40,131 bases of DNA from Patescibacteria group bacterium (GTDB lineage: Bacteria > Patescibacteriota > Minisyncoccia > Phycocordibacterales > 21-14-all-36-13), in assembly GCA_038065915.1 (NCBI GenBank), contig JBBTPZ010000014.1, positions 1 to 40,131 on the forward strand, written 5' to 3'. This document shows, one piece after another, positions 1-38,700 of the stretch. Position numbers and translations under genes: made by a program. The notes below the pieces were generated by a model, which worked only from the letters and a program-made list of their open reading frames with translations, had not been told where the DNA came from and made no database searches. Every line of letters starts with the position of its first letter. The stretch's first letter is position 1.

Positions 1-375
1 AGCCAGCCCCACCGAAATCCAAAACGCAAGACCCGCCCGCATTCCTCCCCAGACCCCTCCTGCGGGCGGGAAATCAGCCGAGGCAAAGCGGAAATCCTTT
101 CCCCCAGAAAAAATAAGCTTTCCGCTTTGCCGAGACCGAATTGAAGCCCCGCCACACTGCCCGAATACTTGGAGGGCAGAACCCCAAAGAAAAATGTCCT
201 TTCCTTTTTCAGAAAAAATTGGTCGCGCGCAAATCCGAAAAGCAAGGAACATTTTTCTTTGGGGTTGCCGAGCGGAGCGAGGCAGTGGCGGGGCTTTCAT
301 TGGTTAGGAATTTTTGATAAAGTAGGTTCGAGCGAAGTCGTAAAGACACTCCAAAAAACAAAAACTTCAAGATAA
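1..375. other. GC-rich block of nested near-perfect hairpins, either a structured RNA or a nest of palindromic repeat elements; cut by the window edge
   Basis: Helices read directly: 32-41/61-70 (cccgcccgca/tgcgggcggg); 82-94/119-131 (ggcaaagcggaaa/tttccgctttgcc); long-range 143-161/281-298 (gaagccccgccac..tgcc/ggcagtggcggggctttc), which encloses 174-200/244-269 (ggcagaaccccaaagaaaaatgtcctt/aaggaacatttttctttggggttgcc). The GC content is far above the surrounding DNA. The track ORF 169..375 runs through these stems. Confidence 0.5.
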
Positions 376-10161: not shown

Positions 10162-12729
10162 ATGAAAAAAGAAAATTTTAAAATACAAGGAATGCATTGC
10201 GCCAGTTGTGTGGGAACGATAGAAAAAGCGTTGTTAAAAACAGTTGGGGTGCATTCTGCTTCTGTTAATTTTGCTACAGAATCAGCGCTCGTTGAATTTG
10301 ATGAAAATATAATTTCTGAAAAAAATCTTGCAAAAACAGTTGATTCTATCGGTTATCATCTTGATGTAGATAAAGGCAATCCTGATGATAAAAAAAATCA
10401 AACGATACAGACCTTAAATAATGAAGAAACAAAGTTGGTTTCATTAAAAATAATTGGAATGGACTCGCCTCATTGCGCAATGGTTGTTGAAAATGCTTTA
10501 AAAAAACTTGAAGGAGTAAAAAATATTGATGTAGATTTTCCAAACCAAAGAGCTCGGATTGTTTTTAATTCATTAATTCTGCGTATTGATACTATTTTGG
10601 AAGTAATCATAGATGCCGGCTACAAACCGATAATTGAGAGCGAAGAAAAAGAAGAAATGATGGATAGAGAAAAAATTGAAAGACAGAAACAAATTAAAAT
10701 TTTAAAAACCAAACTCTTAATAGGCGGTATTCTTTCCATACTGATATTTTTGGGAAGTTTTTCTGATTGGTTTTCTTTTGTACCCGAAATTTTAAGCAAT
10801 AACTGGGCTCTTCTTGTTCTTACTACCCCTGTGCAATTTTGGGTGGGATGGCAATTTTATAGCGGATTAAAACTTCTTATAAAATATCACACCGCCGATA
10901 TGAACACATTGATAGCAATCGGGACTTTGGCGGCATATTTTTATAGCGCGTTTATTACGATATTTCCAACATTTTTTTTAATTGATGGAATAATACCACC
11001 TGTATATTTTGATGTCTCTGCAATCGTGATTACGCTTATTCTTCTTGGTAAATATTTTGAGGTATTGATGAAGAGCAGAGCGAATGAGGCAATCAGAAAA
11101 CTTATCGGTTTACAGCCAAAAACGGCGAAGGTTGTTAGAAACGATAAAGAAATTGAAATATTAATTTCAGAAGTTATGGTCGGAGATTTAATTATTGTCA
11201 GACCGGGTGAAAAAATTCCAGTTGATGGAGAAATTACAGAAGGAAATTCAGATGTGGACGAATCAATGATAACTGGGGAATCAATGCCTGTTTATAAAAC
11301 TGCCGGCGGTGTTGTAATTGGGAGTACAATAAATAAATTTGGTACTTTTACTTTCCGCGCAACTAAAATAGGCAAGGACACAATTTTATCCCAGATTATT
11401 AAAATGATAGAAGAAGCGCAAGGGTCAAAAGCTCCAATCCAACGACTTGCCGACAAGGTTTCTTCTTATTTTGTTCCTGTAGTAATTGTTATAGCTATTT
11501 TAACTTTCATAGTATGGTACTTTTTTGGTCCTATACCTTCAATCAATTTTGCTCTGATTAATTTTGTTGCAGTTTTGATAATTGCTTGCCCATGTGCATT
11601 GGGACTTGCGACACCCATGGCGATAATGGTTTCTTCCGGCAGTGCAGCAACAAAAGGAATTTTGATTAAGGATGCTTCTTCTCTTGAAATAGCTAATAAA
11701 ATAGATACAGTTGTTTTAGATAAAACGGGGACACTAACAAAAGGAGAACCAAAGTTGACGAATATAATTTTTTTTGGTGATGAAAGAAAAGAAGACGATA
11801 TTAACGCTGATTTATTAAAAATAGATAAACAAACATACAATAATAAATTTATAAAAGAAATTTTGCAGTATGCTTCAAGTTTAGACCAAAAGTCATCACA
11901 TCCACTTGATAAAGCAATTATAAGCGAAGCTAAAAAAGAAAATTTAAATCTTTACAAATTGGAAGAATTTGAATCAATTCCCGGAAAAGGTTTACACGGT
12001 TTTCTTATTGTTAATAATCTTAAAACAGAAGCGTGGTTGGGCAACAGGACTCTTATGAAGGATGTCGGAATTAATTTTTCTTCTTATGAAGATAAGATTA
12101 GAGATTTGGAGAATAATGGCAAGACCGTGATAATTCTTGCTGTGGGCAAAAAAATTACTGGTGCTTTAGCAGTAGCTGACACTTTGAAAGAAAAATCAAA
12201 AGATGCAGTCGCATTGTTAAAAAATAAAGGAATAGATGTTTGGATGATAACAGGCGATAATGATTTAACAGCCAGGGCGATTGCTCATCAAGTCGGAATA
12301 GAAAATATTATTAGTGGAGTTTTACCAGACCAAAAGTCAAAGAAGATTAAAGAGCTTCAGGAACAAGGAAAAATTGTAGCCATGGTTGGTGATGGAATAA
12401 ATGATGCGCCTGCATTAACACAAGCAAATGTAGGAATAGCTATGGGCGAAGGAACAGATATAGCAATGGAATCTGCCAATATTACTTTAATGAGAGGCGA
12501 CCTAACTCTTGTTGCGGATACAATTGATATCTCCAGAAAAACTATAAGAATAATAAAACAGAATTTATTCTGGGCATTCTTTTATAACGCTGCTTTCATT
12601 CCAGTCGCCGCAGGTGTTTTATATCCTATATTTGGAATTTTATTGAACCCAATATTTGCAGGAGTGGCGATGGCTTTAAGCAGTATTAGTGTAGTTTTAA
12701 ATTCGTTAAGATTAAAAAAGGTCGAATAA
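10162..12729 (+). CDS. copA: Copper-translocating P1B-type ATPase
   Basis: Two N-terminal HMA domains (GMHCASC; the second is atypical, GMDSPHCAM), a CPC motif ([11 protein letters not shown]), DKTGTLT and GDGINDAP. Confidence 0.95.
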
Positions 12730-12888: not shown

Positions 12889-13143
12889 ATGAAAAAATTA
12901 ATATTATATCTTTATCCAATATTGTTTTTTATTCCAAGTGTCGTTTTAGCAGATGGTAGATATATGATGGATTTTGATTCCGTGGGCGGATATGGAGGAT
13001 GGGGAGGATGGGGAGGATGGGGAGGCATGATGGGTGGCGGTGGTTTTTTCTGGTCGCTGTTTATGGTACTTATTCCGGTCGTATGGTTAATTGTCGGAAT
13101 ACTGGCAATCATCTGGCTTTGGGAGAAAATAAACAAGAAATAA
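12889..13143 (+). CDS. Small secreted/membrane-anchored Gly-Trp-Met-rich protein
   Basis: Signal peptide (..SVVLA/DG), then YGGWGGWGGWGGMMGGGG encoded by a 9-bp tandem repeat (ggaggatgg x3 plus a partial copy, 12994-13029), then a C-terminal TM helix. Confidence 0.55.
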   Translation: MKKLILYLYPILFFIPSVVLADGRYMMDFDSVGGYGGWGGWGGWGGMMGGGGFFWSLFMVLIPVVWLIVGILAIIWLWEKINKK

Positions 13144-13569: not shown

Positions 13570-14421
13570 ATGACCAAAGATAATAAAAACAAAGAAAAAG
13601 GACATTATCACCCTCTCACTATAGCGATGCTTAAAATCGGCAAGATTTTTGATGATTTAGGGTTTGAAATAACGGACGGTCCACACATAGAGGACGAATA
13701 TCATAATTTTGATGCACTTAATATCCCCGCGGATCACCCAGCGCGAGATATGTGGGATACCTTTTGGATTAAGACGCAAATTAACGCAGATAAAAAACCG
13801 CAGATAAATGCAGATAAAAACATCGGCGTAAATCTGCGTGAAAATCTGCGAGAATCTGCGTTATTAAGAACTCACACTTCTCCCGTCCAAATTAGATATA
13901 TGGAGAAAAATAAACCTCCCATAAAAATTATTGCTCCCGGTAAAATTTTTAGATATGAAGCAACAGATGCGACACACGAAGCGCAATTCTATCAATTAGA
14001 GGGACTAATGATTACTAAAAACACAGCTCTTACAACCCTTAAGGGTGTTTTGAAAGAGTTTTTAGAAAAATTTTTTGAAGAAAAAATTAATATTCGTTTT
14101 CGTCCAAGTTATTTTCCATTCGTTGAACCCGGACTTGAAGTTGATGCAACCTGTTTTAAATGTGTAAAAAATCTTTCGACGACGCTCAAGACAGGGAAAA
14201 TAAATTCAAGTTGTTCAATATGCAAAGGAACTGGATGGATAGAAATAATGGGCGCAGGGATGGTTCATCCAAATGTCTTAGAAAATTGTGGAATTAATCC
14301 ACAAGAATGGCAAGGTTTTGCATTTGGAGTAGGAATAGACAGATTGGTTATGCTTAAATATGAAATTCCAGACATAAGAATGCTTTATTCGGGGGACTTG
14401 AGATTAACAAATCAATTTTAG
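13570..14421 (+). CDS. pheS: Phenylalanine--tRNA ligase alpha subunit (short form lacking the N-terminal coiled coil)
   Basis: HPARDMWDTFW, LLRTHTSPVQIRYM, FRYEATDATHEAQFYQLEGL and GWIEIMGAGMVHPNVL. Confidence 0.9.
   Translation: MTKDNKNKEKGHYHPLTIAMLKIGKIFDDLGFEITDGPHIEDEYHNFDALNIPADHPARDMWDTFWIKTQINADKKPQINADKNIGVNLRENLRESALLRTHTSPVQIRYMEKNKPPIKIIAPGKIFRYEATDATHEAQFYQLEGLMITKNTALTTLKGVLKEFLEKFFEEKINIRFRPSYFPFVEPGLEVDATCFKCVKNLSTTLKTGKINSSCSICKGTGWIEIMGAGMVHPNVLENCGINPQEWQGFAFGVGIDRLVMLKYEIPDIRMLYSGDLRLTNQF
13775..13860 (+). repeat. GCAGAT-array palindromic element inserted in frame in pheS
   Basis: The left arm has cgcaaat/cgcagat/cgcagat/tgcagat at 13775, 13785, 13799 and 13809. The right arm has atcggcg/atctgcg x3 at 13822, 13832, 13844 and 13854. 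It is translated as TQINADKKPQINADKNIGVNLRENLRES. Confidence 0.8.
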
Positions 14422-14485
14422 AAAAATAGGGAGTTGTCTGGTGGTAGACAACGACTATATTTTTCTTAACCCCGCCCTTTTATTT

Positions 14486-14713
14486 ATGTATTATGTGTAT
14501 GTTATAAAAAGAAATAATAAATTTTATTTTGGTTTCTCGAAAGATTTAAAGAGAAGATTTAAACAGCATGCAAAAAATTATTCTTGCGAAATGGTGTATT
14601 ATGAAGCTTACGCGACAGAAAAGTTAGCGCGTAATAGGGAAATAAAATTAAAAGAATATGATGGAGCTTGGCGCTCATTACGAAAACGTTTAAATATAAA
14701 AAGGGCGGGGTGA
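14486..14713 (+). CDS. Small GIY-YIG nuclease-family protein (UPF0213-like)
   Basis: MYYVYVIKRNNKFYFGFSKDLKRRFKQH...ARNREIKLK matches the GIY-YIG pattern. The ATG at 14486 is preferred over the GTG at 14441. Confidence 0.75.
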   Translation: MYYVYVIKRNNKFYFGFSKDLKRRFKQHAKNYSCEMVYYEAYATEKLARNREIKLKEYDGAWRSLRKRLNIKRAG

Positions 14714-14750: not shown

Positions 14751-17114
14751 ATGCTCATATCATATAAATGGCTTCAAGAATATTTTAACGGGAAACTTCC
14801 AGATTCAAAAAAGATTAAGGATGTTTTAACTATGCATTCATATGAAATTTCTGAGGTTTCAAAAGACAAAGATGATTTTATTTTTGATATAGATGTATTG
14901 CCTAATAGAGCCCACGATTCGCTTTCTTATTTTGGAATTGCGCGTGAGGTAGAAATGCTTTTTGATTTAAAAACAAAATTTTCAGATGTAGAGAATGTTA
15001 AAATAGATAAAAACTTAAAATCATCAGATTTTTTAACTTTAAAAATTGAAAATCCAAATGAATGCAGGCGAGCAACAAAACGACTCGTTGTTGATGTTCA
15101 AGTTAAAGAATCGCCGGAGTGGCTTAAAGAAAAATTATTAAAATTTGGACAAAAATCTATAAATAACATTATTGATGTAACTAATTTTGTAATGATGGAA
15201 ACAGGACAGCCGGTTCATGCTTTTGATTTTGATAAATTAATTACAGGGACAAACAATAAAAAAAATATTTCAATACAGTTAGCAAAGAAGGGAGAAAAAA
15301 TAACTACACTTGATGAAAATCATTATGTTTTAGACGAAAATACTCTGGTAATTCACGACGGAGAAAAACCGCTTGATATTGCGGGAATAAAAGGAGGAAT
15401 AGATACGGGCATAGATGAAAAAACAAAAAAGATTGTTTTGTCTGTATGTAATTTCAATCCTAAAAGTATAAGAAAAACATCTAAAAAATTAGGGTTACAA
15501 ACAGAGGCGTCAAAAAGATTTGAAGCAGATATAAGTCCAGAGTTGGTTTATACGGCGATGCAGAGATTGTCTCAGCTCGTTTCGGAATTATCCGGCGGTA
15601 AGATGAGTGAAGATATTTTGGATGAATATCCGAGAAAATCAAATCCATACAAGATGGGTGTTTCGGTTGATGAAATTAATAAAATTTTAGGGACTGAAAT
15701 AAAAGAAAAAGAATTTGAAAAAATTTTAGACAAACTCGGGTTTGAATACAAAAAAATAAAACCACTTGATGAAATTAAAAAAATTATTCCAGAACTTGAA
15801 GGCAAGCCATATAAATTTGGCGCGAGCGTGAGTTTTGACGCGCCAAATTATTTTGATTGTTCATCTCTAACGGCATATTTGTTTGTACAGGCAGGAATTC
15901 AAATTCCAAGAGTTTCAATTGACCAATATGTTTTTGGTGAAGAAATTTCTAGGAAAGAAGCAAGATTTGGTGATTTAATATTTCTAAATACCGGCAATGG
16001 AAAAATTTATTACGAAACAATAGATTTTATAAAAGGAACAAAAGTTCAGGAAGGAGTTGACCACTGTGGTTTGTATTTAGGAGACGAAAAGGTCTTACAC
16101 ACATCTCGCCTTAATGGAAATAAAGTTGATGTTCAAAATATAGAAAAAAACCCTTCTTTCAAAACAATTATTGGTTATAGAAGATTTACAGATAATGAAA
16201 AAAGATATGTTTTGACAATTCCTTATTACAGAAATGATATTAGAATAAAAGAAGATTTGGCGGAAGAAATAGGAAGAATATTTGGTTATGAAAATATTTC
16301 TTATGATTTGCCAAAAGAAATATCAAAACCTAAAGTTGATAAGATTTTTTACTATTCAAGTTTAATTAAAAACTTTTTTATAACTGAAGGTTTTTCAGAA
16401 GTTTATAATTATGCATTTGTAGACAATGGGGAAGTTGAGCTTTTGAATCCTTTAGCTGGTGATAAAAAATATTTAAGAAGTTCAGCGACAGAACAAGTTA
16501 AATACAATTTAGAATTCAATTCAAAATATTCTGATGTGCTAGCTCTTGATGATATTAAGATTTTTGAAATAGGCAAAATTTATAAAAAAAATGGAGAGAA
16601 ACTCTATTTATCTATGGGTGTAAAAAAGAAAAAAGAAAAAGATACACAGAATTATATTGAAGAAATAAAAAATAAACTTTCAGAGATTTTACAGACAAAA
16701 ATCGTTGCAAAGGCGGAGAGTAATATATTAAATATTGATTTAGAAGATTTGGTCAATAAACTCCCAAATGTTAATTCATACGGAAAAGTATTTGAAGAGT
16801 TTTCTGAAAATTATAAAAACACCGGAATAAAATATAAAAATATTTCACAATATCCGTTTGTTTTGAGAGATATTGCTGTTTGGGTTCCATTAGAAATAAA
16901 AAGCGAAGAAGTTTTAAATATTATTAAAGAAAACGCCGGAAATTTGTTTGTTCAAAGTAAATTATTTGATAAATACAAAAAAGATAAAAAGGTTTCATAC
17001 GCGTTTCGATTGGTTTTTCAGTCACAAAGCAAAACTTTGACGGATGACGAAGTAGGGGAAGTGATGAAAAAAATAGAAGACAAAATAGTCAAAAAAGGGT
17101 GGGAGGTTAGGTAA
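14751..17114 (+). CDS. pheT: Phenylalanine--tRNA ligase beta subunit with an embedded NlpC/P60-like domain
   Basis: N-terminal MLISYKWLQEYF, B3/4 (NNIIDVTNFVMMETGQPVHAFD), B5 (IPYYRNDIRIKEDLAEEIGRIFGYENI) and the C-terminal anticodon-binding-like domain. See findings for the insertion. Confidence 0.9.
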   Translation: MLISYKWLQEYFNGKLPDSKKIKDVLTMHSYEISEVSKDKDDFIFDIDVLPNRAHDSLSYFGIAREVEMLFDLKTKFSDVENVKIDKNLKSSDFLTLKIENPNECRRATKRLVVDVQVKESPEWLKEKLLKFGQKSINNIIDVTNFVMMETGQPVHAFDFDKLITGTNNKKNISIQLAKKGEKITTLDENHYVLDENTLVIHDGEKPLDIAGIKGGIDTGIDEKTKKIVLSVCNFNPKSIRKTSKKLGLQTEASKRFEADISPELVYTAMQRLSQLVSELSGGKMSEDILDEYPRKSNPYKMGVSVDEINKILGTEIKEKEFEKILDKLGFEYKKIKPLDEIKKIIPELEGKPYKFGASVSFDAPNYFDCSSLTAYLFVQAGIQIPRVSIDQYVFGEEISRKEARFGDLIFLNTGNGKIYYETIDFIKGTKVQEGVDHCGLYLGDEKVLHTSRLNGNKVDVQNIEKNPSFKTIIGYRRFTDNEKRYVLTIPYYRNDIRIKEDLAEEIGRIFGYENISYDLPKEISKPKVDKIFYYSSLIKNFFITEGFSEVYNYAFVDNGEVELLNPLAGDKKYLRSSATEQVKYNLEFNSKYSDVLALDDIKIFEIGKIYKKNGEKLYLSMGVKKKKEKDTQNYIEEIKNKLSEILQTKIVAKAESNILNIDLEDLVNKLPNVNSYGKVFEEFSENYKNTGIKYKNISQYPFVLRDIAVWVPLEIKSEEVLNIIKENAGNLFVQSKLFDKYKKDKKVSYAFRLVFQSQSKTLTDDEVGEVMKKIEDKIVKKGWEVR

Positions 17115-17220
17115 GAATTAAAAAAGCAAAAAAACAAGAAAGCAATAAAATACAAAAAACAAAAACTAAATAATTTTACAGTTAACTGTAAAATTTAAAG
17201 TGAAAATAGTTAAAAACAAA

Positions 17221-18726
17221 ATGAAGGTCAAAAAATATATTTTAGAAATATCCGTATTTGTTTGTGGGGCAGTTGTTATGATATTTGAACTTGTTGGCTC
17301 AAGGGTGCTTGGGCCATTTTTTGGAACATCAATATTTGTTTGGACAAGTTTGATTGGGATTATTTTAGGCAGTTTAAGTTTGGGTTATTATTTTGGTGGA
17401 AAAATCGCGGATAAAAATCCTAGTTTTTCTAATTTATCGCTGATTGTTTTTTTATCAGCAATTTTTATTGGGTTAACAATTTTGATTAAAGAACCATTAC
17501 TCATTGTTTTGCAAACTAATTTAGCAAATATTAAAATTGGTTCTGTCTTAGCATCGCTCATTTTATTTTTACCAACGAGTGTTTTATTGGGAATGGTTTC
17601 TCCTTATGTCGCGAAATTAAAAATAAATAGTTTAGATACATCAGGTTCAACGATAGGAACTCTTTATGCTTTATCTACTGCCGGAAGTATATTCGGAACG
17701 TTTTTAGCTGGTTTTTATTTAATTCCACAATTCGGGACGAATAAAATGTTGCTTATTTTGGTTTTTGTTTTAATAATTGTTTCCATATTAATTTATTCAA
17801 AACAACATTTGAATGGAAAATTATTTGTTTTGATATTTGTTTTGGCTGGGTGGATGTCAGTTAATGAATTTAATTCTTTATCTGAAAAAAAAGGTTTTAT
17901 TGATGTTGATACCGCCTATAATCGTATTTTAATAACTGAACATAAGGATGTAAAAACGGATAGAATTATTCGTGTAATGGGAATAAATAACGAGAATCAT
18001 TCGTCAATGTTTTTAGACAGTGATGAATTGGTTAATGAATATTCAAAATATTTTCATCTCGCAAAATATTTTAATCCCAATTTTAAAAAATCGTTGATAT
18101 TTGGTGGAGCCGGATATTCATACCCAAAAGATTATTTACTTAAATATCCGGATGCAACAATTGATGTTGTTGAAATAGACCCGAAAGTTACCGAACTCGC
18201 AAAAAAATATTTTAATTTGAAAGAAAATTCTAGAATGAATATTTATCATGAAGACGGAAGAGTTTATTTAAATAAGACACTCGCCCGCCCAGGCGGGAAA
18301 GAAAAATACGATGTAATTTTTGGAGATGCTTTTAGTTCCAGATATTCTATTCCATATCAATTAACCACAAAGGAAGCAGTACAAAAAAAATATGATATTT
18401 TAAATGAGAATGGAATTGTTGTTTTAAATCTCATTTCTTCAATTGAAGGTGAGAAGGGAAAATTTTTAAGAGCTGAATACTCGACATACAAAAATATTTT
18501 TCCACAAGTTTATATATTTCCAGTTGATGAGCCCAATAATGGGGAAGAAGTTCAAAATATAATTTTGGTAGCATTAAAAACAAAAGACAAACAAATTTTC
18601 AGTAGTGATGATGCAGAAATAAATAAATATCTACAGCGTGTTTGGAAAAAAGAAATTAAAACAGATGTACCAATTTTAACCGATGATTTTGCACCCGTGG
18701 ATTACTATATAAATAAGGTAATTTAA
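17221..18726 (+). CDS. Fused polytopic membrane domain / spermidine-synthase-like (class I methyltransferase fold) protein
   Basis: About 7 N-terminal TM helices, then GGAGYSYPKDYL..VVEIDPKV..YF..EDGRVYL..YDVIFGDAF. I use the ATG at 17221. By my count, the seven codons the track adds from 17200 do not stay in frame with the printed sequence. Confidence 0.75.
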   Translation: MKVKKYILEISVFVCGAVVMIFELVGSRVLGPFFGTSIFVWTSLIGIILGSLSLGYYFGGKIADKNPSFSNLSLIVFLSAIFIGLTILIKEPLLIVLQTNLANIKIGSVLASLILFLPTSVLLGMVSPYVAKLKINSLDTSGSTIGTLYALSTAGSIFGTFLAGFYLIPQFGTNKMLLILVFVLIIVSILIYSKQHLNGKLFVLIFVLAGWMSVNEFNSLSEKKGFIDVDTAYNRILITEHKDVKTDRIIRVMGINNENHSSMFLDSDELVNEYSKYFHLAKYFNPNFKKSLIFGGAGYSYPKDYLLKYPDATIDVVEIDPKVTELAKKYFNLKENSRMNIYHEDGRVYLNKTLARPGGKEKYDVIFGDAFSSRYSIPYQLTTKEAVQKKYDILNENGIVVLNLISSIEGEKGKFLRAEYSTYKNIFPQVYIFPVDEPNNGEEVQNIILVALKTKDKQIFSSDDAEINKYLQRVWKKEIKTDVPILTDDFAPVDYYINKVI

Positions 18727-18832: not shown

Positions 18833-20956
<2,124 letters not shown>

Positions 20957-27756: not shown

Positions 27757-30700
27757 ATGAAAAAATACGACCATTTTAAAATTGAACAAAAATTCCAGAA
27801 AAAATGGGAAAAAGAAGGAATTTATAATACAAAAGAAGACAAAAGCAAACAAAAATATTATTGTCTTGTAGAGTTCCCATATGCATCAGGAGAAGGATTA
27901 CATGTTGGCCATGTTAGAAGTTATACAGCACTTGATATTGTCGCAAGAAAAAAAAGGATGGAAGGACTTAATGTTTTATATCCAATAGGTTGGGATGCGT
28001 TTGGTTTACCAACGGAAAATTATGCGATTAAGACAGGAGTAAATCCTAAAATAATAACTAAAAAAAATACAAATAATTTTAGAAAACAATTAAAATCACT
28101 TGGATTTTCATTTGATTGGTCTCGTGAAATTAATACTTCAAGTCCTGAATATTACAAATGGACTCAGTGGATATTTTTGCAGTTTTTTAAACATGGATTG
28201 GCATACAAAAAAAGAATGCCGATTAATTGGTGTTTGAGTTGTAAGATTGGTTTAGCAAATGAAGAAGTTGTTAATGGTGTTTGTGAAAGGTGTGGAGGAC
28301 AAGTTGAAAAAAGAGAAAAGGAACAATGGATGTTGGCAATCACAAAATATGCCGAAAGATTATATGATGATTTGGACAAGACAGAATTTTTGGAAAAAAT
28401 AAAAATTCAACAAAGAAATTGGATAGGAAAAAGTCACGGCGCACTCATTTCATTCGCGCTTGTAACTTCGCAGATTATTGCAGATAAAAAACTGCAGATA
28501 AACGCAGATGGAAAGATTGTTTTAATTACGAATGTTCAAGAGTTTAGAGAAAATGTAAATATTGATTCAAAATTAAAAATAGAAGGAAGAGAATTTTCTA
28601 TAAAAGAATTAATTAAGTTCAAACTAGATGACGGTTCTTTTTATCTGAAACTCTTTTTAAGCGGTGGGTATGTTTTGGCCGATGATTTAAATAGTAACTC
28701 TTTTATTTTAGTGAAAGAAAAGGATACAAATTTGAAAATAGAAGAAGATGATATAACTTTTGAAAATAAAAAATATAGTTTCAGTTATAAAGCTCATGCA
28801 ATTGCAGAAGAAGTTTTTGGTGAGGAGATATTCAAAAAAGGGGAGAGCGAGACATTCTGGGATTATACATCTGGCAATAATTATTTAAGTTTGGGTATAG
28901 TAGATAAAAATAAAAAAAGATTGGATTTTCTTGGGAAAACAATTAAAGCTGACAAAATTGAAGTAACAAATCTGCGTGAATCTGCATCCAATCTGCGTTC
29001 ATCCGCGACATTTACGAAAGTAAATGTTTTTACGACAAGACCGGACACACTTTTTGGTGCGACGTATTTAGTTTTAGCACCAGAACATGAATTGATTAGA
29101 AAATTTATTGAAAATAAAGAAATAGAAAATATAAAAGAAGTTGAAAAATATATTTCTGAAACTGCAAAAAAGAAAGATATAGACAGAACAGCTGAAGGCA
29201 AACAAAAAACGGGTGTTGAATTAAAGGGAATAAAAGCCACAAACCCCGTAAACAAAAAAGAAATTCCAATTTTCATAGCTGATTATGTTTTAGCCGGATA
29301 CGGGACTGGTGCAATAATGGCTGTGCCGGCACACGATGAACGCGATTATGCCTTTACATCGCAGATGAACGCAGATAAAAAAACGCAGATAGACGCAGAT
29401 AAAATTGAAATAATAAAAGTTATTGAAAGCAATGAAAATTTATACACAGGTTATGGGAAATTAATTAATTCAGGAAAATTTGATGGAATGGAAAGTAATG
29501 AAGCAATAAAGGAAATTACTAAATTTGTTGGTGGGGAATTGAAGACAGTTTATAGTTTGAGGGATTGGATATTTTCAAGACAGAGATATTGGGGAGAACC
29601 TATTCCACTCGTTTTTTGCAACGAGTGCAAAAAACGAGTGGAAAATTCCAAATTACAAATTCCAAATCACAAACAAGTTCCAAATTCAAAATCCAAAATT
29701 CAAAACCAAGAATTTAACGAAGGTGAGTTGTTAAATCCAGGATGGGTTGTTGATGAAAATCTCCCGCTTGAGCTTCCTGATGTAAAAAAGTATGAACCGA
29801 CTGATTCTGGAGAATCACCGCTTGCTTCAGTTGAAAAATGGGTAAATGTTAAATGTCCAAAATGTGGTGGCCCGGCAAAAAGAGAAACAGATACAATGCC
29901 GAACTGGGCTGGTTCTTCTTGGTATTGGTTGAGATATACTGACCCAGAAAATGATAAAGTTTTTGCTGATGAAAAGAAATTAAAATATTGGACTCCCGTT
30001 GATTGGTATAACGGAGGAATGGAACACACGACACTTCACTTGCTTTACTCTCGTTTTTGGCATAAGTTTCTTTTTGATATTGGTTTGGTTCCAACAGACG
30101 AACCATACATAAAGAGAACTTCCCACGGAATGATTCTTGGAGACGGAGGAGAAAAGATGTCAAAGTCCAGAGGAAATGTCATTAATCCCGATGACATAAT
30201 TGAAAGATTTGGAGCCGACTCATTTAGATTGTATGAAATGTTTTTAGGACCGTTTGACCAGCAAACAAGTTGGAATTCTGACGGAGTTGTTGGAACGAGA
30301 AGATTTGTTGAAAAAGTTTATGGTCTTTCCGAAAAAATAGTTGATAGTGAAAATGAAAGTGTAAATAATTTTTTAAACAAAACAATAAAGAAAGTTGGTG
30401 AAGATATTGAAAATATGAAATTTAATACGGCGATAAGTTCAATGATGATGTTTTTAAATTTTGTTTATGATGAAAATAAAATTAGCAAAGATAGTTATAA
30501 AAAATTTCTAAAAATTCTTTCGCCGTTTGCGCCACATGTGACAGAGGAATTGTGGTCAGAAACAGGGGAAAAAGAATCTATTCATAAAAGCAAGTGGCCT
30601 GAATATGATGAAATAAAAGAAAATGAAAATTTTACTATTGTTGTTCAGGTAGATGGAAAAATCAGAGATAAATTTATTGTAGCCAGCAATCTTAGTGAAA

Positions 30701-30816
30701 ATGAAATAAAGGACAAGGCCATTTCTTTGGAGGCGGTTTTAAGATGGGTGGGAGATAAAAAAATAAAAAAAACTATATATATAAAAGACAAGCTTGTAAA
30801 TATTGTTACAATTTAA
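27757..30816 (+). CDS. leuS: Leucine--tRNA ligase carrying several lineage-specific in-frame insertions
   Basis: HVGHVRSY (HIGH), NWIGKS, VFTTRPDTLFGATY, AVPAHDERDY, RQRYWGEPIP and KMSKSRGN. At 1019 aa it is much longer than typical bacterial LeuS. Confidence 0.95.
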   Translation: MKKYDHFKIEQKFQKKWEKEGIYNTKEDKSKQKYYCLVEFPYASGEGLHVGHVRSYTALDIVARKKRMEGLNVLYPIGWDAFGLPTENYAIKTGVNPKIITKKNTNNFRKQLKSLGFSFDWSREINTSSPEYYKWTQWIFLQFFKHGLAYKKRMPINWCLSCKIGLANEEVVNGVCERCGGQVEKREKEQWMLAITKYAERLYDDLDKTEFLEKIKIQQRNWIGKSHGALISFALVTSQIIADKKLQINADGKIVLITNVQEFRENVNIDSKLKIEGREFSIKELIKFKLDDGSFYLKLFLSGGYVLADDLNSNSFILVKEKDTNLKIEEDDITFENKKYSFSYKAHAIAEEVFGEEIFKKGESETFWDYTSGNNYLSLGIVDKNKKRLDFLGKTIKADKIEVTNLRESASNLRSSATFTKVNVFTTRPDTLFGATYLVLAPEHELIRKFIENKEIENIKEVEKYISETAKKKDIDRTAEGKQKTGVELKGIKATNPVNKKEIPIFIADYVLAGYGTGAIMAVPAHDERDYAFTSQMNADKKTQIDADKIEIIKVIESNENLYTGYGKLINSGKFDGMESNEAIKEITKFVGGELKTVYSLRDWIFSRQRYWGEPIPLVFCNECKKRVENSKLQIPNHKQVPNSKSKIQNQEFNEGELLNPGWVVDENLPLELPDVKKYEPTDSGESPLASVEKWVNVKCPKCGGPAKRETDTMPNWAGSSWYWLRYTDPENDKVFADEKKLKYWTPVDWYNGGMEHTTLHLLYSRFWHKFLFDIGLVPTDEPYIKRTSHGMILGDGGEKMSKSRGNVINPDDIIERFGADSFRLYEMFLGPFDQQTSWNSDGVVGTRRFVEKVYGLSEKIVDSENESVNNFLNKTIKKVGEDIENMKFNTAISSMMMFLNFVYDENKISKDSYKKFLKILSPFAPHVTEELWSETGEKESIHKSKWPEYDEIKENENFTIVVQVDGKIRDKFIVASNLSENEIKDKAISLEAVLRWVGDKKIKKTIYIKDKLVNIVTI
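28469..29007 (+). repeat. Composite in-frame insertion in leuS: inverted GCAGAT-array arms bracketing ~460 nt of extra coding sequence
   Basis: The left arm has (c/t)gcagat at 28469, 28479, 28493 and 28503. The right arm has atctgc(g/a) at 28970, 28980 and 28991, plus atccgcg at 29001. The cargo stays open in the leuS frame. Confidence 0.8.
29360..29400 (+). repeat. Solo GCAGAT-array arm in frame in leuS
   Basis: cgcagat at 29360, 29370, 29384 and 29394 (spacing 10/14/10), translated as SQMNADKKTQIDADK just after the AHDERDY motif. Confidence 0.8.
29646..29706 (+). repeat. 7-bp-periodic low-complexity tract (TNCAAAN)n inside leuS
   Basis: The units are ttccaaa ttacaaa ttccaaa tcacaaa caag ttccaaa ttcaaaa tccaaaa ttcaaaa. 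It is translated as NSKLQIPNHKQVPNSKSKIQNQ. Confidence 0.7.
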
Positions 30817-35761: not shown

Positions 35762-38700
35762 ATGGCAAAAGAAAAAGAAAACAAAAAAATAATTGAAGAA
35801 AAAAAAATTGATAAGAATATCATAGATCAGGACATAAGTTCTGAAATGAGAACTTCCTATTTGGATTATGCGATGTCTGTTATAACGAGTAGAGCATTAC
35901 CCGATATAAGGGACGGGATGAAACCTGTTCACAGAAGGATTTTGTATGCTATGCACGATATGGGATTAAACGCTTCCGCAAAAACGAGAAAGTCGGCAGC
36001 TATAATTGGTGAAGTTCTCGGAAAATATCACCCACACGGAGACGCTTCTGTTTATGATGCGATGGTTAAACTTGCTCAAGATTTTTCAATGAGGTATCCA
36101 CTTGTTATTGGACAGGGAAACTTTGGCTGTTTTACAAAGGACACAAAAGTCAAACTGGCTGATGGCCGCAGTTTAAGCTTTGAAGATTTAATTAAAGAGT
36201 ATAAAAAGGGGAAAAAGAATTATACATACACAGTCAATCCAACTGGATTAATTTCGATTGCCGAAATTAAAAACCCCAGAGTAACTAGAAAAAATACTGA
36301 AATTATGAAAATTATATTGGACAATGGAGAAGAAATCAAATGTACTCCCAATCATTTATTCATGATGAAGGATAGTGTTTATAAAAAAGCAAAAGATTTA
36401 AAATTTGGCGAATCATTAATGCCTTTATATGAAAAATTATCGGAAAAAACTGATTATCTGAATCGTGATGGTTATATTTTAATATATCAAAATAAAATTG
36501 ACGAATGGATACCCGCGCACCATTTAGCTGATAACTACAACTTAACCGCTAAGAAATATTCAAAAAGAGAAGGTCGGGTAAGGCATCATTTAGATTTCAA
36601 CAAACTCAATAATAATCCTGATAATATACAAAGAATGGATTGGGGCGAACACTGGCGCATTCATTATGAACAGACCGCCAATTTGCATAAAAAGAAAGAA
36701 TATAGGGAAAAAATTGCTGAAGGAAGGAAGAAATTTTGGTCTAATCCAATTAATAGGGCAGAATACGCAAAAAGAATTTCTGAACGAAATTTTAAAAATT
36801 GGCAAAATTCTGAATATAGAGAAAAAATGAGTAAATTTTTGAGCGTGGCCAATAAAAAATATATTCAAAACCATCCAGAAAAAAGAATCGAATTTTCTAA
36901 ACGAGCGACAGAAACACTAAAAAAACTATGGCAAGATCCAGTTTATCAAAAACTGTTTCACGAAAAAATCGTTAGCGCGAACAAAAAAAGAATTACTAAC
37001 AATACCGGCAAGGTTAAGTTTCTTAAAATATGCCGAGAAGTTTTGAAAGAACATAAAATTTTAAATCAGGATTTATATAAACAAAAACGGGATATGATTT
37101 ACAGATACGGTTGTGCGACTTCTTGGCAAACCGGCATACAAAAATATTATAATAATGACGAGAAAATCTTGCTTGATGCTTTAAATAAAAACCACAAAGT
37201 TATAGAAATAAAATTCTTAAAACAAAAGGAAGATGTATATGATATAACAATAGAAAAAAGCCATAATTTTGCTCTAGCCGCGGGAGTTTTTGTTCACAAT
37301 TCGATTGATGGTGACCCCGCCGCCGCTCAAAGATATACAGAAGCAAAAATGTCAAAGCTTGCGGGAGAAATGATAAAGGACTTGGAAAAAGATACTGTAG
37401 ATTTTAAACCAAACTATGAAAACACAAGGAAAGAACCTGTAATACTTCCATCTGCAGTTCCAAATCTTATTTTAAATGGAACACTTGGTATTGCTGTTGG
37501 TATGGCAACAAACATACCTCCACATAATATAAAAGAAATTATTGATGCCACTGTTCATCTTATTGATAATAAAAATGCGACAACCGAAGAATTGGCTAAA
37601 TTTGTAAAGGGTCCGGATTTTCCAACCGGCGGGATAATTTTTGGAAGACAGGATATATTACACGCATATGTAAATGGAAGAGGGGGAATTTTAGTTAGAG
37701 GTGAGGCAGAAATATTTGAAGAAAAACCAGGACAGTTTCAAATAGTGATATCGTCAATTCCCTACAGAGTTAATAAAGCGGAACTTATACAAAAAGTAGC
37801 TGATTTAGTCAGAGACAAAAAGATAGAAGGAATAAGAGGCATCCGTGACGAATCAACGAAAGATATAAGAGTTGTAATAGAACTCAAGTCCGGTGCACAG
37901 CCAAATAAAATATTAAATTCATTGTATAAACACACTCAACTTGAAGACACTTTCCATGTGAATATGGTTGGTCTTGTTGACGGTGTTCCACAAACCTTAT
38001 CTTTAAAAACAATTTTAGAAGAATTTGTTTCTCATAGAATTATTGTGATAAAGAGAAGAACGGAATTTGATTTAAAAAAGACAGAGGCGAGAGAGCACAT
38101 TTTGATAGGTCTTAAAAAGGCCTTGGATTATATTGATAAAATAATAAAATTGATAAAGGCATCAAAAGATGCGCAAACCGCACACACGAATCTTATAAAA
38201 GAATTTAAATTTTCTCCACTTCAAGCAACCGCAATTCTTGAAATGAAATTGCAGAAATTGGCAGGATTGGAAAGAAAAAAACTGGAAGACGAATTGGAGG
38301 AAAAAAGAAATCTGATAAAAGAATTAAAATCCATTCTTGCTTCACCACACAAAATACTTTCAATCATTAAGGATGAGATGAAGGAAATAAAAGAAAAATA
38401 TGGCGATGAAAGAAAAACAAAAGTTTTTGCAAACAGAATTAAAGATATATCTGTTGAAGATATGATTCCAAACAAAGAAGAGGTCTTGGTTTTCACTGCT
38501 GGCGGTTATATAAAGAGGACGGACCCAACAGAATTTAAAACACAAAAAAGAGGAGGTGTTGGAGTTGTTGATATAAATACCAAGGAAGAGGATTTTGTAA
38601 CAAAATTTTTAACAGCATCCACTCATAGTGATTTATTATTTTTTACAGACAAAGGTAAAGTGTACCAGATAAAAATGTATGATTTGCCAGAAGGAAGAAG

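What the first reader, a model, noticed from the sequence alone, without database searches (positions are those of the whole stretch)
15801..16187. Apparently intact NlpC/P60 (C40 peptidase-like) domain embedded inside the PheT B5 region
About 129 residues sit between ..ILDKLGFEYKKIKP.. and ..YVLTIPYYRNDIRIKEDLAEEIGRIFGYENI, which are normally contiguous B5 elements. The inserted sequence reads GKPYKFGASVS..NYFDCSSLTAYLFVQAGIQIPRVSIDQY..GEEISRKEARFGDLIFL...VDHCGLYLGDEKVLHTS. This is the NlpC/P60 signature, with the catalytic Cys (codon 15858-15860), a His (DHCGLY) and a third polar His (LHTS) all retained. There are no intein termini, so the domain is presumably part of the mature synthetase. 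I am not aware of a cell-wall-hydrolase or acyl/thiol-transferase-type papain-like domain fused inside a tRNA synthetase. It could add an editing, deacylase or moonlighting activity.
Basis: partly seen in the sequence, partly recalled or inferred. Interest (0 to 1): 0.75.

Follow-up and report, generated by a model that had tools for sequence, protein, structure and literature searches.

The report
Cell-wall-type peptidase domain inside PheRS beta
The beta subunit of phenylalanyl-tRNA synthetase in this tiny-genome (CPR/Parcubacteria) bacterium carries an intact, strongly conserved NlpC/P60 cysteine-peptidase domain spliced into its B5 domain. The feature is shared by hundreds of related species and survives as a stand-alone gene even where the rest of the subunit has been lost.

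Summary
PheT (14751-17114, 787 aa) has a Pfam NlpC/P60 domain at residues 351-477 (70 bits, cutoff 23). It sits in the beta-hairpin of the B5 domain, with Cys370/His438/His450 intact.

It is not a one-off or an artefact. The 80 best GTDB species loci and the 120 best database homologues all have the same architecture, and all are Patescibacteria. The triad is kept in 69/69/63 of 70 orthologues, and dN/dS is about 0.1, like the editing domain.

In related lineages a ~380-aa mitochondrial-type PheRS occupies the pheS position. There, pheT is reduced to a ~220-aa B5-half/NlpC-P60/B5-half protein with the triad still conserved. A cytoplasmic C39-like peptidase gene follows pheT in about half of the loci and is fused to the module in at least 10 proteins. 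That gene is missing from this window.

Structure and sequence place the domain among gamma-D-Glu/diamino-acid peptidoglycan endopeptidases, and the residues that bind L-Ala-gamma-D-Glu are conserved. The canonical B3/4 editing site is largely retained.

My best reading is a self-sufficient cytoplasmic muropeptide-type amidase riding on PheRS, not an editing domain. The substrate is inferred, not shown. I found no paper describing it. NCBI annotation names many of these PheT proteins "C40 family peptidase".

The parts
13570..14421 (+). pheS. A short 283-aa alpha subunit with the catalytic core only. It carries an in-frame palindromic insert at 13775-13861.
   Evidence: PF01409 E 1e-96. TIGR00468 317.6 bits against a cutoff of 237.45. 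Repeats and hairpin.
14751..17114 (+). pheT. A 787-aa beta subunit with domain order B1, B3/4, B5 (N half), NlpC/P60, B5 (C half), catalytic-like module, FDX-ACB. It has no B2 (tRNA_bind) domain.
   Evidence: AlphaFold2 model with a 60-sequence alignment: pLDDT 90.4, pTM 0.69. Foldseek matches PheRS beta chains at E 5e-52.
15063..15596 (+). B3/4 editing domain (residues 105-282). The editing-site equivalents N145, H156, G215, T251 and A253 are kept. K135 replaces R244, and S231 replaces E334.
   Evidence: PF03483 E 1.8e-60. Residue mapping comes from the alignment to E. coli 3PCO_B. Conservation in 70 orthologues.
15636..15761 (+). B5 N-terminal half (residues ~296-337): strand 301-304, helices 306-313 and 319-329, strand 332-336.
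   Evidence: Split B5 hit. Secondary structure from the model. Alignment to PDB PheT chains ends here.
15762..16187 (+). The inserted NlpC/P60 (MEROPS C40) domain, residues 338-479. The Pfam core is 351-477 (nt 15801-16181).
   Evidence: PF00877 70 bits. Best PDB sequence hit 7CFL, E 4.4e-16. Foldseek to 7CFL: target TM 0.90-0.92, rmsd 1.6-2.0 A. pLDDT 88-97 in 10-residue blocks across the domain.
15858..15860 (+). Catalytic Cys370 codon (tgt), in the FDCSS motif.
   Evidence: Cys in 69/70 orthologues. Invariant in 41 free-standing homologues.
16062..16064 (+). Catalytic His438 codon (cac), in the VDHCG motif.
   Evidence: 69/70. Invariant in the free-standing forms.
16098..16100 (+). Codon of the third triad residue, His450 (cac), in the VLHTS motif.
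   Evidence: 63/70; the others are Y, F or Q. At least 90% conserved in the free-standing forms.
15990..16052 (+). Family-specific extension of about 14 residues (approx. residues 414-434, ...GNGKIYYETIDFIKGTKVQEG...) just before the catalytic His. It is a beta-hairpin that enlarges the loop corresponding to the B4-B5 groove wall of the C. difficile autolysins.
   Evidence: Gap in the alignment to 7CFL. Strands 420-422 and 431-436 in the model. Conserved ET.EF.PGT.V.EG motif. The role of the B4-B5 loop is taken from PMC12542765.
16188..16289 (+). B5 C-terminal half (residues 480-513): strand 485-489 and helix 500-511. It holds the acidic motif D496, D502, E505, E506.
   Evidence: B5 profile positions 34-67. 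The acidic residues are conserved in 66-70 of 70 orthologues. That this motif binds a Mg2+ shared with the alpha subunit is from my memory of UniProt PheT annotation and was not tested.
16335..16820 (+). Catalytic-like module (B6/B7), residues ~529-690.
   Evidence: PF17759 E 1.2e-7.
16845..17111 (+). FDX-ACB (B8) anticodon-binding domain, residues 699-787.
   Evidence: PF03147 E 9.1e-21.
17115..17199 (.). An 85-bp spacer where most relatives carry a C39-like peptidase gene. The gene is absent here. The next gene, 17200-18726, is a membrane spermidine-synthase-like protein, followed by gyrB at 18836-20956.
   Evidence: No tblastn hit in the window even at E<=10. The closest species, L005, has the order pheT, C39_2, spermidine-synthase-like gene, gyrB.

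Best explanation
The insert is a catalytically competent, cytoplasmic NlpC/P60 (papain-fold Cys-His-His) amidase. An ancestor of a large Patescibacteria clade acquired it in the beta-hairpin 'wing' of the PheT B5 domain, and it has been kept ever since.

It folds as its own domain, clasped by the two B5 halves, and leaves the synthetase domains intact. Its activity is selected for its own sake rather than as part of aminoacylation or editing.

Most likely it cleaves a gamma-D-glutamyl-type amide bond in small soluble peptides, such as murein stem peptides or muropeptides taken up or turned over by the cell. It often appears to work with a neighbouring cytoplasmic C39-like cysteine peptidase. 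PheRS would then serve as an abundant, constitutively made scaffold.

Shown here: domain identity, intact triad, purifying selection, clade-wide distribution, survival as a free-standing or fused module, and linkage to the C39-like gene. Inferred: cytoplasmic location (no signal peptide, part of an aaRS), the substrate class (from homology and conserved acyl-side binding residues), and independence from tRNA.
For: 1. Identity and fold.
- PF00877 scores 70 bits.
- The 31 PDB sequence hits are NlpC/P60 proteins, the annotated ones peptidoglycan hydrolases.
- Foldseek gives target TM 0.90-0.92 to autolysin Acd24020.
- The 50 listed structural matches of the free-standing homologue are all NlpC/P60-family structures, most annotated as DL-endopeptidases. 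They include the gamma-D-Glu-L-diamino-acid endopeptidases 2EVR and 2HBW and YkfC 3H41. None is LRAT or PLAAT.

2. Active site.
- Cys, His and His are kept in 69, 69 and 63 of 70 orthologues.
- In CdCwlT33800 the residues that contact L-Ala-gamma-D-Glu and are needed for activity are Tyr229, Asp241, Ser243 and Arg259 (PMC12542765).
- Their equivalents here are Y354, D369, S371 and R387. These are invariant or at least 90% conserved in 60 orthologues.

3. Selection.
- dN/dS of the insert is 0.08-0.11. B3/4 gives 0.05-0.11 and the catalytic-like module 0.21-0.28.
- Mean column conservation is 0.63, against 0.60 for B3/4 and 0.45 for the catalytic-like module.

4. Autonomy.
- Proteins of ~200-240 aa made of B5-half, NlpC/P60 and B5-half occupy the pheT position. 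They lie between a 380-aa PheS+FDX-ACB protein and gyrB.
- Genome C7867-005 has only one tRNA-synt_2d hit and one FDX-ACB hit, and the 382-aa protein carries both domains.
- The triad is invariant or nearly so in 41 such proteins, while the acidic B5 motif decays.
- In an NJ tree these forms are nested among the embedded ones.

5. Second peptidase.
- A signal-less Peptidase_C39_2 gene lies within 300 bp downstream of pheT in 62 of 126 loci, and elsewhere in the locus in 25 more.
- Its Gln, Cys and His are invariant in 75 sequences.
- At least 10 proteins of 391-399 aa carry both PF00877 and PF13529 annotations, and five more of the same length and full-length similarity carry only PF00877; a direct scan of two confirmed the C39_2 domain.
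- The four looked up lie away from pheS. In three of those four (L166, L170, L171/L172) the locus also carries mraY and, where the contig reaches, an S11 D-Ala-D-Ala carboxypeptidase gene; L168/L169 does not.

6. The editing site is retained, so there is no gap for the insert to fill.
Against: - No substrate has been tested. The conserved binding residues are general NlpC/P60 motif residues and may be partly structural.
- If the enzyme were unrelated to PheRS, separation into an independent gene should be common. It was seen only together with loss of the rest of PheT, and the B5 halves are nearly always retained.
- In most free-standing cases the gene remains next to the PheRS gene, with an overlapping ATGA stop/start. 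That fits functional coupling as well as it fits history.
- The mraY and dacA neighbourhood of the fused forms is one conserved syntenic block, and a gene on the opposite strand intervenes. It is weak evidence.
- The window's own lineage lacks the C39-like gene at this locus, yet the insert stays under selection. The pairing is therefore not obligatory.
- Two family-specific loop extensions next to the active site could mean a substrate different from that of the autolysins.
Confidence: 0.45

Rival explanations
1. A tRNA-directed activity. The papain-fold domain would act on the aminoacyl ester of Phe-tRNA(Phe), or of a mischarged or N-blocked species made by PheRS. It would hydrolyse it as a new kind of cis/trans editing or deacylase domain. 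Alternatively it would transfer the aminoacyl group through a Cys thioester to another acceptor.
For: - The domain is physically built into PheRS. It sits in B5, which in E. coli PheRS contacts helices of the editing domain and the alpha subunit (PMC12449066).
- After the editing-domain-bearing beta subunit is lost, the module persists right next to the monomeric PheRS gene, often translationally coupled.
- A bare 148-aa NlpC/P60 relative also lies beside a monomeric PheRS gene.
- In the window and in 22 of 70 orthologues, the Tyr-recognising Glu of the B3/4 site (E. coli E334) is replaced by Ser.
- From my own knowledge: members of the wider NlpC/P60 superfamily (LRAT/PLAAT) handle O-acyl esters through a Cys thioester.
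Against: - Most orthologues keep a complete-looking B3/4 editing site.
- All close sequence and structure relatives are peptidoglycan amidases. LRAT matches are only sub-threshold (E 0.001-0.006), and none appears among the top 50 structural matches.
- The module also thrives fused to a C39-like peptidase at loci unrelated to pheS.
- The acidic B5 motif decays in the free forms.
- I know of no precedent for a papain-fold aminoacyl-tRNA deacylase.
Confidence: 0.15
2. A cytoplasmic peptide- or protein-processing pair unrelated to the cell wall. NlpC/P60 and the C39-like peptidase together would trim or mature some peptide or protein. Candidates are a leader peptide, a gamma-glutamyl conjugate such as a glutathione- or polyamine-type amide, or imported host peptides used as an amino-acid supply.
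For: - The pairing with Peptidase_C39_2 recurs as both a gene neighbour and a fusion.
- One C39-like protein gives weak hits to the phytochelatin-synthase, AvrRpt2 and BtrH families.
- A spermidine-synthase-like gene follows the cluster in the window and in L005.
- Two loop extensions beside the active site are specific to this family.
- Published genome surveys find Parcubacteria lacking amino-acid biosynthesis (PMC4508563).
Against: - The weak family hits are below threshold.
- The acyl-side residues match those that bind L-Ala-gamma-D-Glu in autolysins.
- No candidate substrate gene, such as a leader-bearing peptide, was seen in the loci.
Confidence: 0.2
3. A non-catalytic structural or binding role. 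The domain would replace lost tRNA-binding parts (B2 and the alpha-subunit coiled coil), or stabilise B5, with the triad retained only by inertia.
For: The window's PheT lacks B2 and its PheS lacks the N-terminal coiled coil. Inactive NlpC/P60 domains used for binding do exist, for example RipD (listed).
Against: - The triad and oxyanion/binding residues are conserved across roughly 50%-identical orthologues and in all free-standing forms. This is not expected for a scaffold.
- Two orthologues that still have B2 also carry the insert (P0074 and P0078).
- The module is kept where no heterotetrameric PheRS remains.
Confidence: 0.05
4. An artefact: a chimeric assembly, a mis-called ORF, or an intein-like element that is removed from the protein.
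For: None beyond the unusual architecture. Another protein in the window (GyrA) does hold a real intein.
Against: - The ORF is continuous.
- There is no Hint or intein hit.
- There is no compositional break.
- More than 200 independent sequences share the architecture.
- A confident single-chain model has both B5 halves re-forming one sheet.
Confidence: 0.01

Closest known systems
Peptidoglycan DL-endopeptidases of the NlpC/P60 (MEROPS C40) family, for example C. difficile Acd24020 (PDB 7CFL) and CdCwlT33800 (9UBF)
   Same: The fold matches (target TM 0.87-0.92). Sequence identity is 23-32%. The Cys-His-His triad is the same, as are the Tyr/Asp/Ser/Arg residues that hold L-Ala-gamma-D-Glu.
   Different: Those enzymes are secreted, with signal peptides and wall-binding or lysozyme domains. 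This domain has no export signal and is nested inside a cytoplasmic tRNA synthetase. It also has a 4-residue (DAP) extension and a ~14-residue hairpin extension next to the active site.
Murein-peptide-specific NlpC/P60 enzymes: B. subtilis/B. cereus YkfC (3H41) and cyanobacterial AvPCP/NpPCP (2HBW, 2EVR)
   Same: They are NlpC/P60 enzymes acting on free L-Ala-gamma-D-Glu-diamino-acid peptides, with accessory domains that restrict the groove. They appear among the top structural matches of the free-standing homologue. That YkfC is cytoplasmic and involved in recycling is from my own knowledge.
   Different: Their accessory domains are N-terminal SH3b domains, not a split B5 domain. They are not linked to any tRNA synthetase.
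Hydrolytic domains inserted into or appended to aminoacyl-tRNA synthetases (PheRS B3/4, LeuRS CP1, ProRS INS) and their free-standing descendants such as CtdA (B3/4 fold)
   Same: The architectural principle is the same: a hydrolase domain grafted into a synthetase. CtdA also shows that a PheT-derived domain can live on as a stand-alone protein (PMC12449066 and PMC12268091).
   Different: Those domains deacylate tRNA and have unrelated folds. Here the fold is papain-like, and nothing so far links it to tRNA.
Monomeric mitochondrial PheRS (human FARS2, PDB 3CMQ), as the partner of the free-standing module
   Same: The ~380-aa proteins encoded upstream of the free-standing module combine the PheS catalytic core with a C-terminal FDX-ACB domain. 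They match FARS2 at E ~1e-59 and TIGR00469 at 247-249 bits.
   Different: They are bacterial and score just under the curated cutoffs (258 for pheS_mito, 300 for the 'SrmL' model). They are followed by a relic of pheT.

Membership tests
NlpC/P60 (Pfam PF00877, MEROPS C40) | Profile match above the curated threshold | tested here: met
   70 bits in the whole protein and 76 bits for the excised domain, against a gathering score of 23.
NlpC/P60 (Pfam PF00877, MEROPS C40) | Catalytic Cys at the start of a helix, with a His and a third polar residue on following strands, in the non-permuted order | tested here: met
   C370 lies at the start of helix 370-380, H438 on strand 438-444 and H450 on strand 447-452. 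They are conserved in 69, 69 and 63 of 70 orthologues.
NlpC/P60 (Pfam PF00877, MEROPS C40) | Papain-like alpha+beta fold | tested here: met
   The AlphaFold2 model has pLDDT 88-97 across the domain. Foldseek to 7CFL gives target TM 0.90-0.92 and rmsd 1.6-2.0 A.
Peptidoglycan gamma-D-Glu-diamino-acid endopeptidase (function) | Residues that bind the L-Ala-gamma-D-Glu acyl side (Tyr, the Asp-Arg salt bridge, Ser) | tested here: met
   Y354, D369, S371 and R387 are invariant or at least 90% conserved. They were mapped onto CdCwlT33800 residues Y229, D241, S243 and R259 by motif register and by the 7CFL alignment.
Peptidoglycan gamma-D-Glu-diamino-acid endopeptidase (function) | Hydrolysis of the D-Glu-mDAP/Lys bond | not testable with these tools
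   This needs an enzyme assay with a C370A control.
Secreted cell-wall hydrolase (autolysin or endolysin) | Export signal and/or a wall-binding module (SH3b, LysM, etc.) | tested here: not met
   Pfam finds only PheT domains around the insert. The N-terminus is the normal B1 start. The free-standing forms begin directly with the B5 strand.
Bacterial PheRS beta subunit (PheT, TIGR00472) | Equivalog profile above cutoff, domain order B1, B3/4, B5, B6/7, B8, and a gene next to pheS | tested here: met
   422 bits against a cutoff of 402.65. Domains. pheS lies 330 bp upstream. B2 is missing.
Bacterial PheRS beta subunit (PheT, TIGR00472) | Editing-site residues of B3/4 (E. coli R244, N254, H265, G318, E334, T354, A356) | tested here: inconclusive
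   In the window these are K, N, H, G, S, T and A. Across 70 orthologues N, H and G are invariant, and the E334 equivalent is E in 48 and S in 22. Whether the Ser variant still edits is unknown.
Intein or other self-excising insertion | Hint fold, a nucleophile at the N-junction, and His-Asn plus a nucleophile at the C-junction | tested here: not met
   No Hint or Intein_splicing hit in PheT. The junctions read ...KKIKPLDEIKK... and ...RRFTDNEKRYV.... The same search finds the GyrA intein.
LRAT/PLAAT acyltransferase branch of the NlpC/P60 superfamily | PF04970 match and a circularly permuted order of catalytic residues (His before Cys) | tested here: not met
   The window domain gives no PF04970 hit. 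Only sub-threshold hits (E 0.001-0.006) appear in two relatives. The order is Cys before His. No LRAT structure is among the top 50 matches.
Known aminoacyl-tRNA editing or trans-editing domains (B3/4, CP1, INS/YbaK, AlaX, DTD) | Homology to one of these folds | tested here: not met
   The insert matches only NlpC/P60-type models in Pfam and NCBIfam, and only NlpC/P60 structures.

The most novel reading that the evidence does not exclude
The PheRS-embedded papain-fold domain may be a new class of synthetase-associated catalytic module acting on the product of PheRS. It would hydrolyse, or transfer through a Cys thioester, the aminoacyl group of Phe-tRNA(Phe) or of a mischarged or blocked analogue. 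It would be retained as a trans-acting partner, sometimes together with the C39-like enzyme, once PheRS became monomeric and lost its B3/4 editing domain.
Probability: 0.12. Interest if true: 0.9.

Novelty: new variant of a known kind. Interest (0 to 1): 0.62.

Why it matters
1. An essential translation enzyme in a large uncultivated bacterial clade carries a second, apparently active, catalytic centre of a kind not reported in any tRNA synthetase.

2. The reduction series is a natural experiment. It runs from full PheT, to a B5/NlpC-P60 relic beside a mitochondrial-type monomeric PheRS, to a fusion with a C39-like peptidase. It shows that the peptidase is the part of PheT the cell cannot lose. 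It also documents monomeric PheRS in bacteria.

3. If the substrate is a murein peptide, the finding points to cytoplasmic cell-wall-peptide salvage in organisms that cannot make their own amino acids. If the substrate is an aminoacyl-tRNA, it would be a new editing or transfer chemistry.

4. There is a practical consequence. NCBI names many of these PheT proteins "C40 family peptidase" or "PheT-related protein". This can make CPR genomes look as if they lack pheT.

Tried and rejected
- **Intein or excised element:** no Hint hit and no junction nucleophiles.
- **Assembly chimera or recent transfer:** no GC break, and hundreds of independent occurrences.
- **"The insert replaces a dead editing site":** rejected as a general rule, because most orthologues keep the B3/4 site.
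- **LRAT-type acyltransferase:** not supported.
- **An apparent ~530-aa class (B5/NlpC-P60, catalytic-like module, FDX-ACB, without B1-B3/4):** in the one locus examined, the upstream ORF is the missing PheT N-terminus ending in a stop. I treat this class as split or frameshifted genes.
- **Literature:** seven full-text searches found nothing on this architecture, on bacterial monomeric PheRS in CPR, or on "SrmL".
- **The C39-like protein:** no PDB sequence hit at E<=1 and no NCBIfam match.
- **The C39-like gene in the window:** searched for and not found.
- **Whole-genome check that free-standing-module genomes lack pheT:** possible only indirectly, for one genome, through a published marker table.
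Full report
**1. What is in the sequence**

The window encodes pheS (13570-14421, 283 aa), a small GIY-YIG ORF (14441-14713) and pheT (14751-17114, 787 aa) on the + strand. A membrane spermidine-synthase-like gene and gyrB follow.

Pfam finds these domains in PheT:
- B3_4 at residues 105-282
- NLPC_P60 at 351-477 (E 1.9e-19, 70 bits, gathering score 23)
- B5 in two stretches, the C-terminal one (residues 480-513) matching profile positions 34-67
- the catalytic-like module at 529-628
- FDX-ACB at 699-787

NCBIfam's PheT equivalog is passed (422 against 402.65), and the other matches to the insert are all NlpC/P60 peptidoglycan hydrolase models. PheT gives no intein or Hint hit, although the same library detects an intein in this window's GyrA. 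Base composition is continuous across the insert.

**2. Anatomy**

An AlphaFold2 model built on 60 orthologues is confident: pLDDT 90.4, pTM 0.69, with 10-residue block means of 88-97 through residues 300-510. In the model, B5 consists of:
- strand 301-304
- helices 306-313 and 319-329
- strand 332-336
- the insert (helix 338-349 through strand 473-478)
- strand 485-489
- helix 500-511

The peptidase therefore replaces the tight turn of the B5 beta-hairpin. In E. coli and Salmonella that turn is only a few residues long (alignments).

Foldseek matches the whole model to PheRS beta chains (E ~5e-52). It matches the insert to the C. difficile autolysin Acd24020 catalytic domain (7CFL; target TM 0.90-0.92, rmsd 1.6-2.0 A, 31-32% identity) and to Acd33800 (9UBF).

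Relative to 7CFL the domain has two family-specific extensions:
- four residues in the conserved G-A-S-x-x-x-D-A-P stretch before the catalytic Cys
- a ~14-residue hairpin (ET.EF.PGT.V.EG) just before the catalytic His

The second extension enlarges what the C. difficile work calls the B4-B5 loop, a mobile side wall of the substrate groove (PMC12542765).

**3. Distribution**

A pattern scan of one genome per GTDB species found 189 genomes encoding a relative. In the 80 best loci the module lies between PheT N- and C-terminal parts, in one ORF of about 780-810 aa wherever the contig allows. pheS lies just upstream in most of them, and on the same locus in the rest where the contig reaches. All record titles are Patescibacteria/Parcubacteria-type MAGs.

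The 120 best hits to full-length PheT in the 5.8-billion-protein collection all carry PF03483, PF00877, PF03484, PF17759 and PF03147. Two (~902 aa) also keep the B2 tRNA_bind domain. NCBI names these proteins "C40 family peptidase" or "phenylalanine--tRNA ligase beta subunit-related protein". An exhaustive profile search of 1.84 billion cluster representatives gives 184 clusters at E<=1e-30, most of PheT length with the module at about residues 290-520. I found no paper describing this.

**4. Selection**

These results come from 70 full-length orthologues, typically about 50% identical to the window.

| Feature | Conservation |
|---|---|
| Cys370 | 69/70 |
| His438 | 69/70 |
| His450 | 63/70 |
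| Mean column conservation, insert | 0.63 |
| Mean column conservation, B3/4 | 0.60 |
| Mean column conservation, catalytic-like module | 0.45 |

Against four distinct close relatives (six loci, two pairs identical), dN/dS of the insert is 0.08-0.11. B3/4 gives 0.05-0.11 and the catalytic-like module 0.21-0.28.

Mutagenesis of CdCwlT33800 showed that the residues contacting the L-Ala-gamma-D-Glu part of the substrate are Tyr229, Asp241, Ser243 and Arg259, with an Asp-Arg salt bridge. They correspond by motif register to Y354, D369, S371 and R387. These are invariant or at least 90% conserved in 60 orthologues.

**5. The editing site is still there**

I mapped residues through the alignment to E. 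coli PheT, 3PCO_B. The window has K135 (R244), N145 (N254), H156 (H265), G215 (G318), S231 (E334), T251 (T354) and A253 (A356). Across orthologues N, H and G are invariant, and the E334 position is Glu in 48 and Ser in 22. The insert therefore coexists with a canonical-looking editing domain in most species. The window's subclade carries the E-to-Ser change, whose effect is unknown.

**6. The module outlives the beta subunit**

The first homology search also returned 199-227-aa proteins that align over the B5 N-half, the peptidase and the B5 strand that follows, and then stop. Their genes lie immediately downstream of a ~380-aa protein with tRNA-synt_2d plus FDX-ACB, and upstream of gyrB. In L001 the stop and start overlap as ATGA. 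This is the pheT position of the pheS-pheT-gyrB arrangement found in many of the full-length loci.

The 380-aa protein is most similar to human mitochondrial PheRS (E ~1e-59). It scores just under the curated cutoffs of TIGR00469 and of NCBIfam's "PheS-related mystery ligase SrmL".

For genome C7867-005 (93% relative completeness), a published marker table lists exactly one tRNA-synt_2d hit and one FDX-ACB hit. The 382-aa protein of L001 carries both domains, so they are most simply the same protein. pheT was not found in that study's core-gene table (PMC4508563). In that lineage the monomeric enzyme therefore appears to be the only PheRS, and pheT has shrunk to the B5/NlpC-P60 unit.

Further observations on the free-standing forms:
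- In 41 such proteins Cys and the first His are invariant and the second His is at least 90% conserved.
- The acidic motif of the B5 C-terminal helix degenerates in them. By my recollection of UniProt annotation that motif binds a Mg2+ shared with the alpha subunit.
- A model of one of them is a single compact unit (pLDDT 92.8, pTM 0.89), and its 50 listed structural matches are all NlpC/P60-family structures, most annotated as DL-endopeptidases.
- In a neighbour-joining tree of 300 modules, which has no support values, the free-standing forms fall in about four groups nested among embedded forms. This suggests repeated reduction.
- A 148-aa bare NlpC/P60 relative also sits beside a monomeric PheRS gene.

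**7. A second peptidase**

A ~180-190-aa Peptidase_C39_2 protein (PF13529, 46-66 bits) is encoded within 300 bp downstream of pheT in 62 of 126 full-length loci, and elsewhere in the locus in 25 more. The loci were not de-duplicated. It has no signal peptide, and its Gln, Cys and His are invariant in 75 sequences.

At least 10 proteins of 391-399 aa carry both PF00877 and PF13529 annotations. Five more of the same length and full-length similarity carry only PF00877. A direct scan of two of these proteins confirmed the C39_2 domain, one of them just below the gathering score. In the four I looked up, the fusion follows a membrane CAP-domain gene, away from pheS. In three of those four the locus also carries mraY and, where the contig reaches, scpAB and an S11 carboxypeptidase gene; in two of them a DUF218 gene follows. 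The fourth (L168/L169) has dnaG, a sigma factor and a VIT1 gene instead.

The window itself lacks the C39-like gene: only 85 bp separate pheT from the next gene. Its closest GTDB relative, L005 (87-91% identical PheT), has the order pheT, C39_2, spermidine-synthase-like gene, gyrB.

**8. Interpretation**

Shown by the analyses:
- a real, intact, strongly constrained NlpC/P60 domain nested in B5
- clade-wide presence
- persistence as a stand-alone or fused module once the rest of PheT is gone
- frequent genetic coupling to a C39-like peptidase
- closest similarity to gamma-D-Glu-diamino-acid peptidoglycan endopeptidases, including the acyl-side binding residues

Inferred:
- that it works in the cytoplasm
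- that its substrate is a small murein-type peptide, with the enlarged groove loop making an intact sacculus an unlikely substrate
- that PheRS is a scaffold rather than a functional partner

I put this reading at about 0.45.

The main rival is an action on aminoacyl-tRNA. It is favoured by the persistent adjacency to the PheRS gene and by the fact that B5 touches the editing domain and the alpha subunit. It has no support from homology, and it is weakened by the retained editing site and by the relocated fusions. I put it at about 0.15. Other peptide-processing roles (about 0.2) and a purely structural role (about 0.05) remain possible.

**9. Novelty**

Both parts are known families. A papain-fold peptidase nested in a tRNA synthetase, conserved across a major clade and surviving as the relic of that synthetase subunit, is a new architectural variant. 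As far as I could find it is undescribed in the literature, though it is visible in automated annotations.

Noticed in passing
window 13775-13861 (pheS); 28465-28509, 28969-29006 and 29356-29400 (leuS): A palindromic DNA element lies in frame inside genes. GCAGAT(A)AA repeats are followed by AATCTGCG repeats. In PheS it reads QINADKKPQINADKNIGVNLRENLRESA and folds into a long hairpin (-34.5 kcal/mol, z -6.7). In LeuRS the same arms flank a ~190-aa unassigned insert, with a third left-arm copy further on. It resembles the Rickettsia palindromic elements that insert into ORFs (that comparison is from memory). The arm motif occurs 8 times against 0.1 expected.
   Followed up: partly
window 27757-30816: LeuRS is 1019 aa. 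It has an extra ~190-residue segment (aa ~237-417) between the first catalytic-core stretch and the CP1 editing domain. The only family hit is a weak, sub-threshold one to DUF4178 (E 2.8e-4).
   Followed up: partly
window 35762-39403: GyrA (1213 aa) contains an intein: Intein_splicing PF14890 at aa 132-513, 75.8 bits.
   Followed up: no
window 14441-14713: A 90-aa GIY-YIG ORF (PF01541, 30 bits) sits between pheS and pheT. It is present in the same-species contig L145 but was not found in the close relatives L005-L007.
   Followed up: partly
L001 6856-8004; L003 6859-8001; L004 435-1580; also L086-L092 and L150: Bacterial proteins of ~380 aa join the PheS catalytic core to a C-terminal FDX-ACB domain, which is the mitochondrial monomeric PheRS architecture. 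The best PDB hit is human FARS2 at E ~1e-59. They score just under the cutoffs of TIGR00469 and of NCBIfam's 'SrmL' model. In genome C7867-005 this appears to be the only PheRS.
   Followed up: partly
L005 7489-8070 and about 85 other loci; absent at window 17115-17199: A conserved cytoplasmic Peptidase_C39_2 gene lies directly downstream of pheT in many relatives and is fused to the NlpC/P60 module in at least 10 proteins. It has been lost from this locus in the window's own subclade.
   Followed up: yes
window 12889-13143: A small ORF (84 aa) encodes a signal- or TM-like start, a Gly/Trp-rich run (GGYGGWGGWGGWGGMMGGGG) and a C-terminal hydrophobic segment. It lies just after a copper-type P-type ATPase (10162-12729).
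   Followed up: no
window ~15775-15790 (A-run in pheT) compared with protein P0011: Another public assembly that appears to be the same species (a 685,866-bp contig) has pheT broken by a frameshift at the A-run just before the insert. The result is a 130-aa fragment. This is probably a homopolymer sequencing error.
   Followed up: no
L167 3-554 and 677-2269: This pheT is split into an N-terminal (B1/B3-4) ORF and a 530-aa ORF containing B5/NlpC-P60, the catalytic-like module and FDX-ACB. Several ~480-545-aa cluster representatives look similar. Whether these are real splits or sequencing errors is open.
   Followed up: partly
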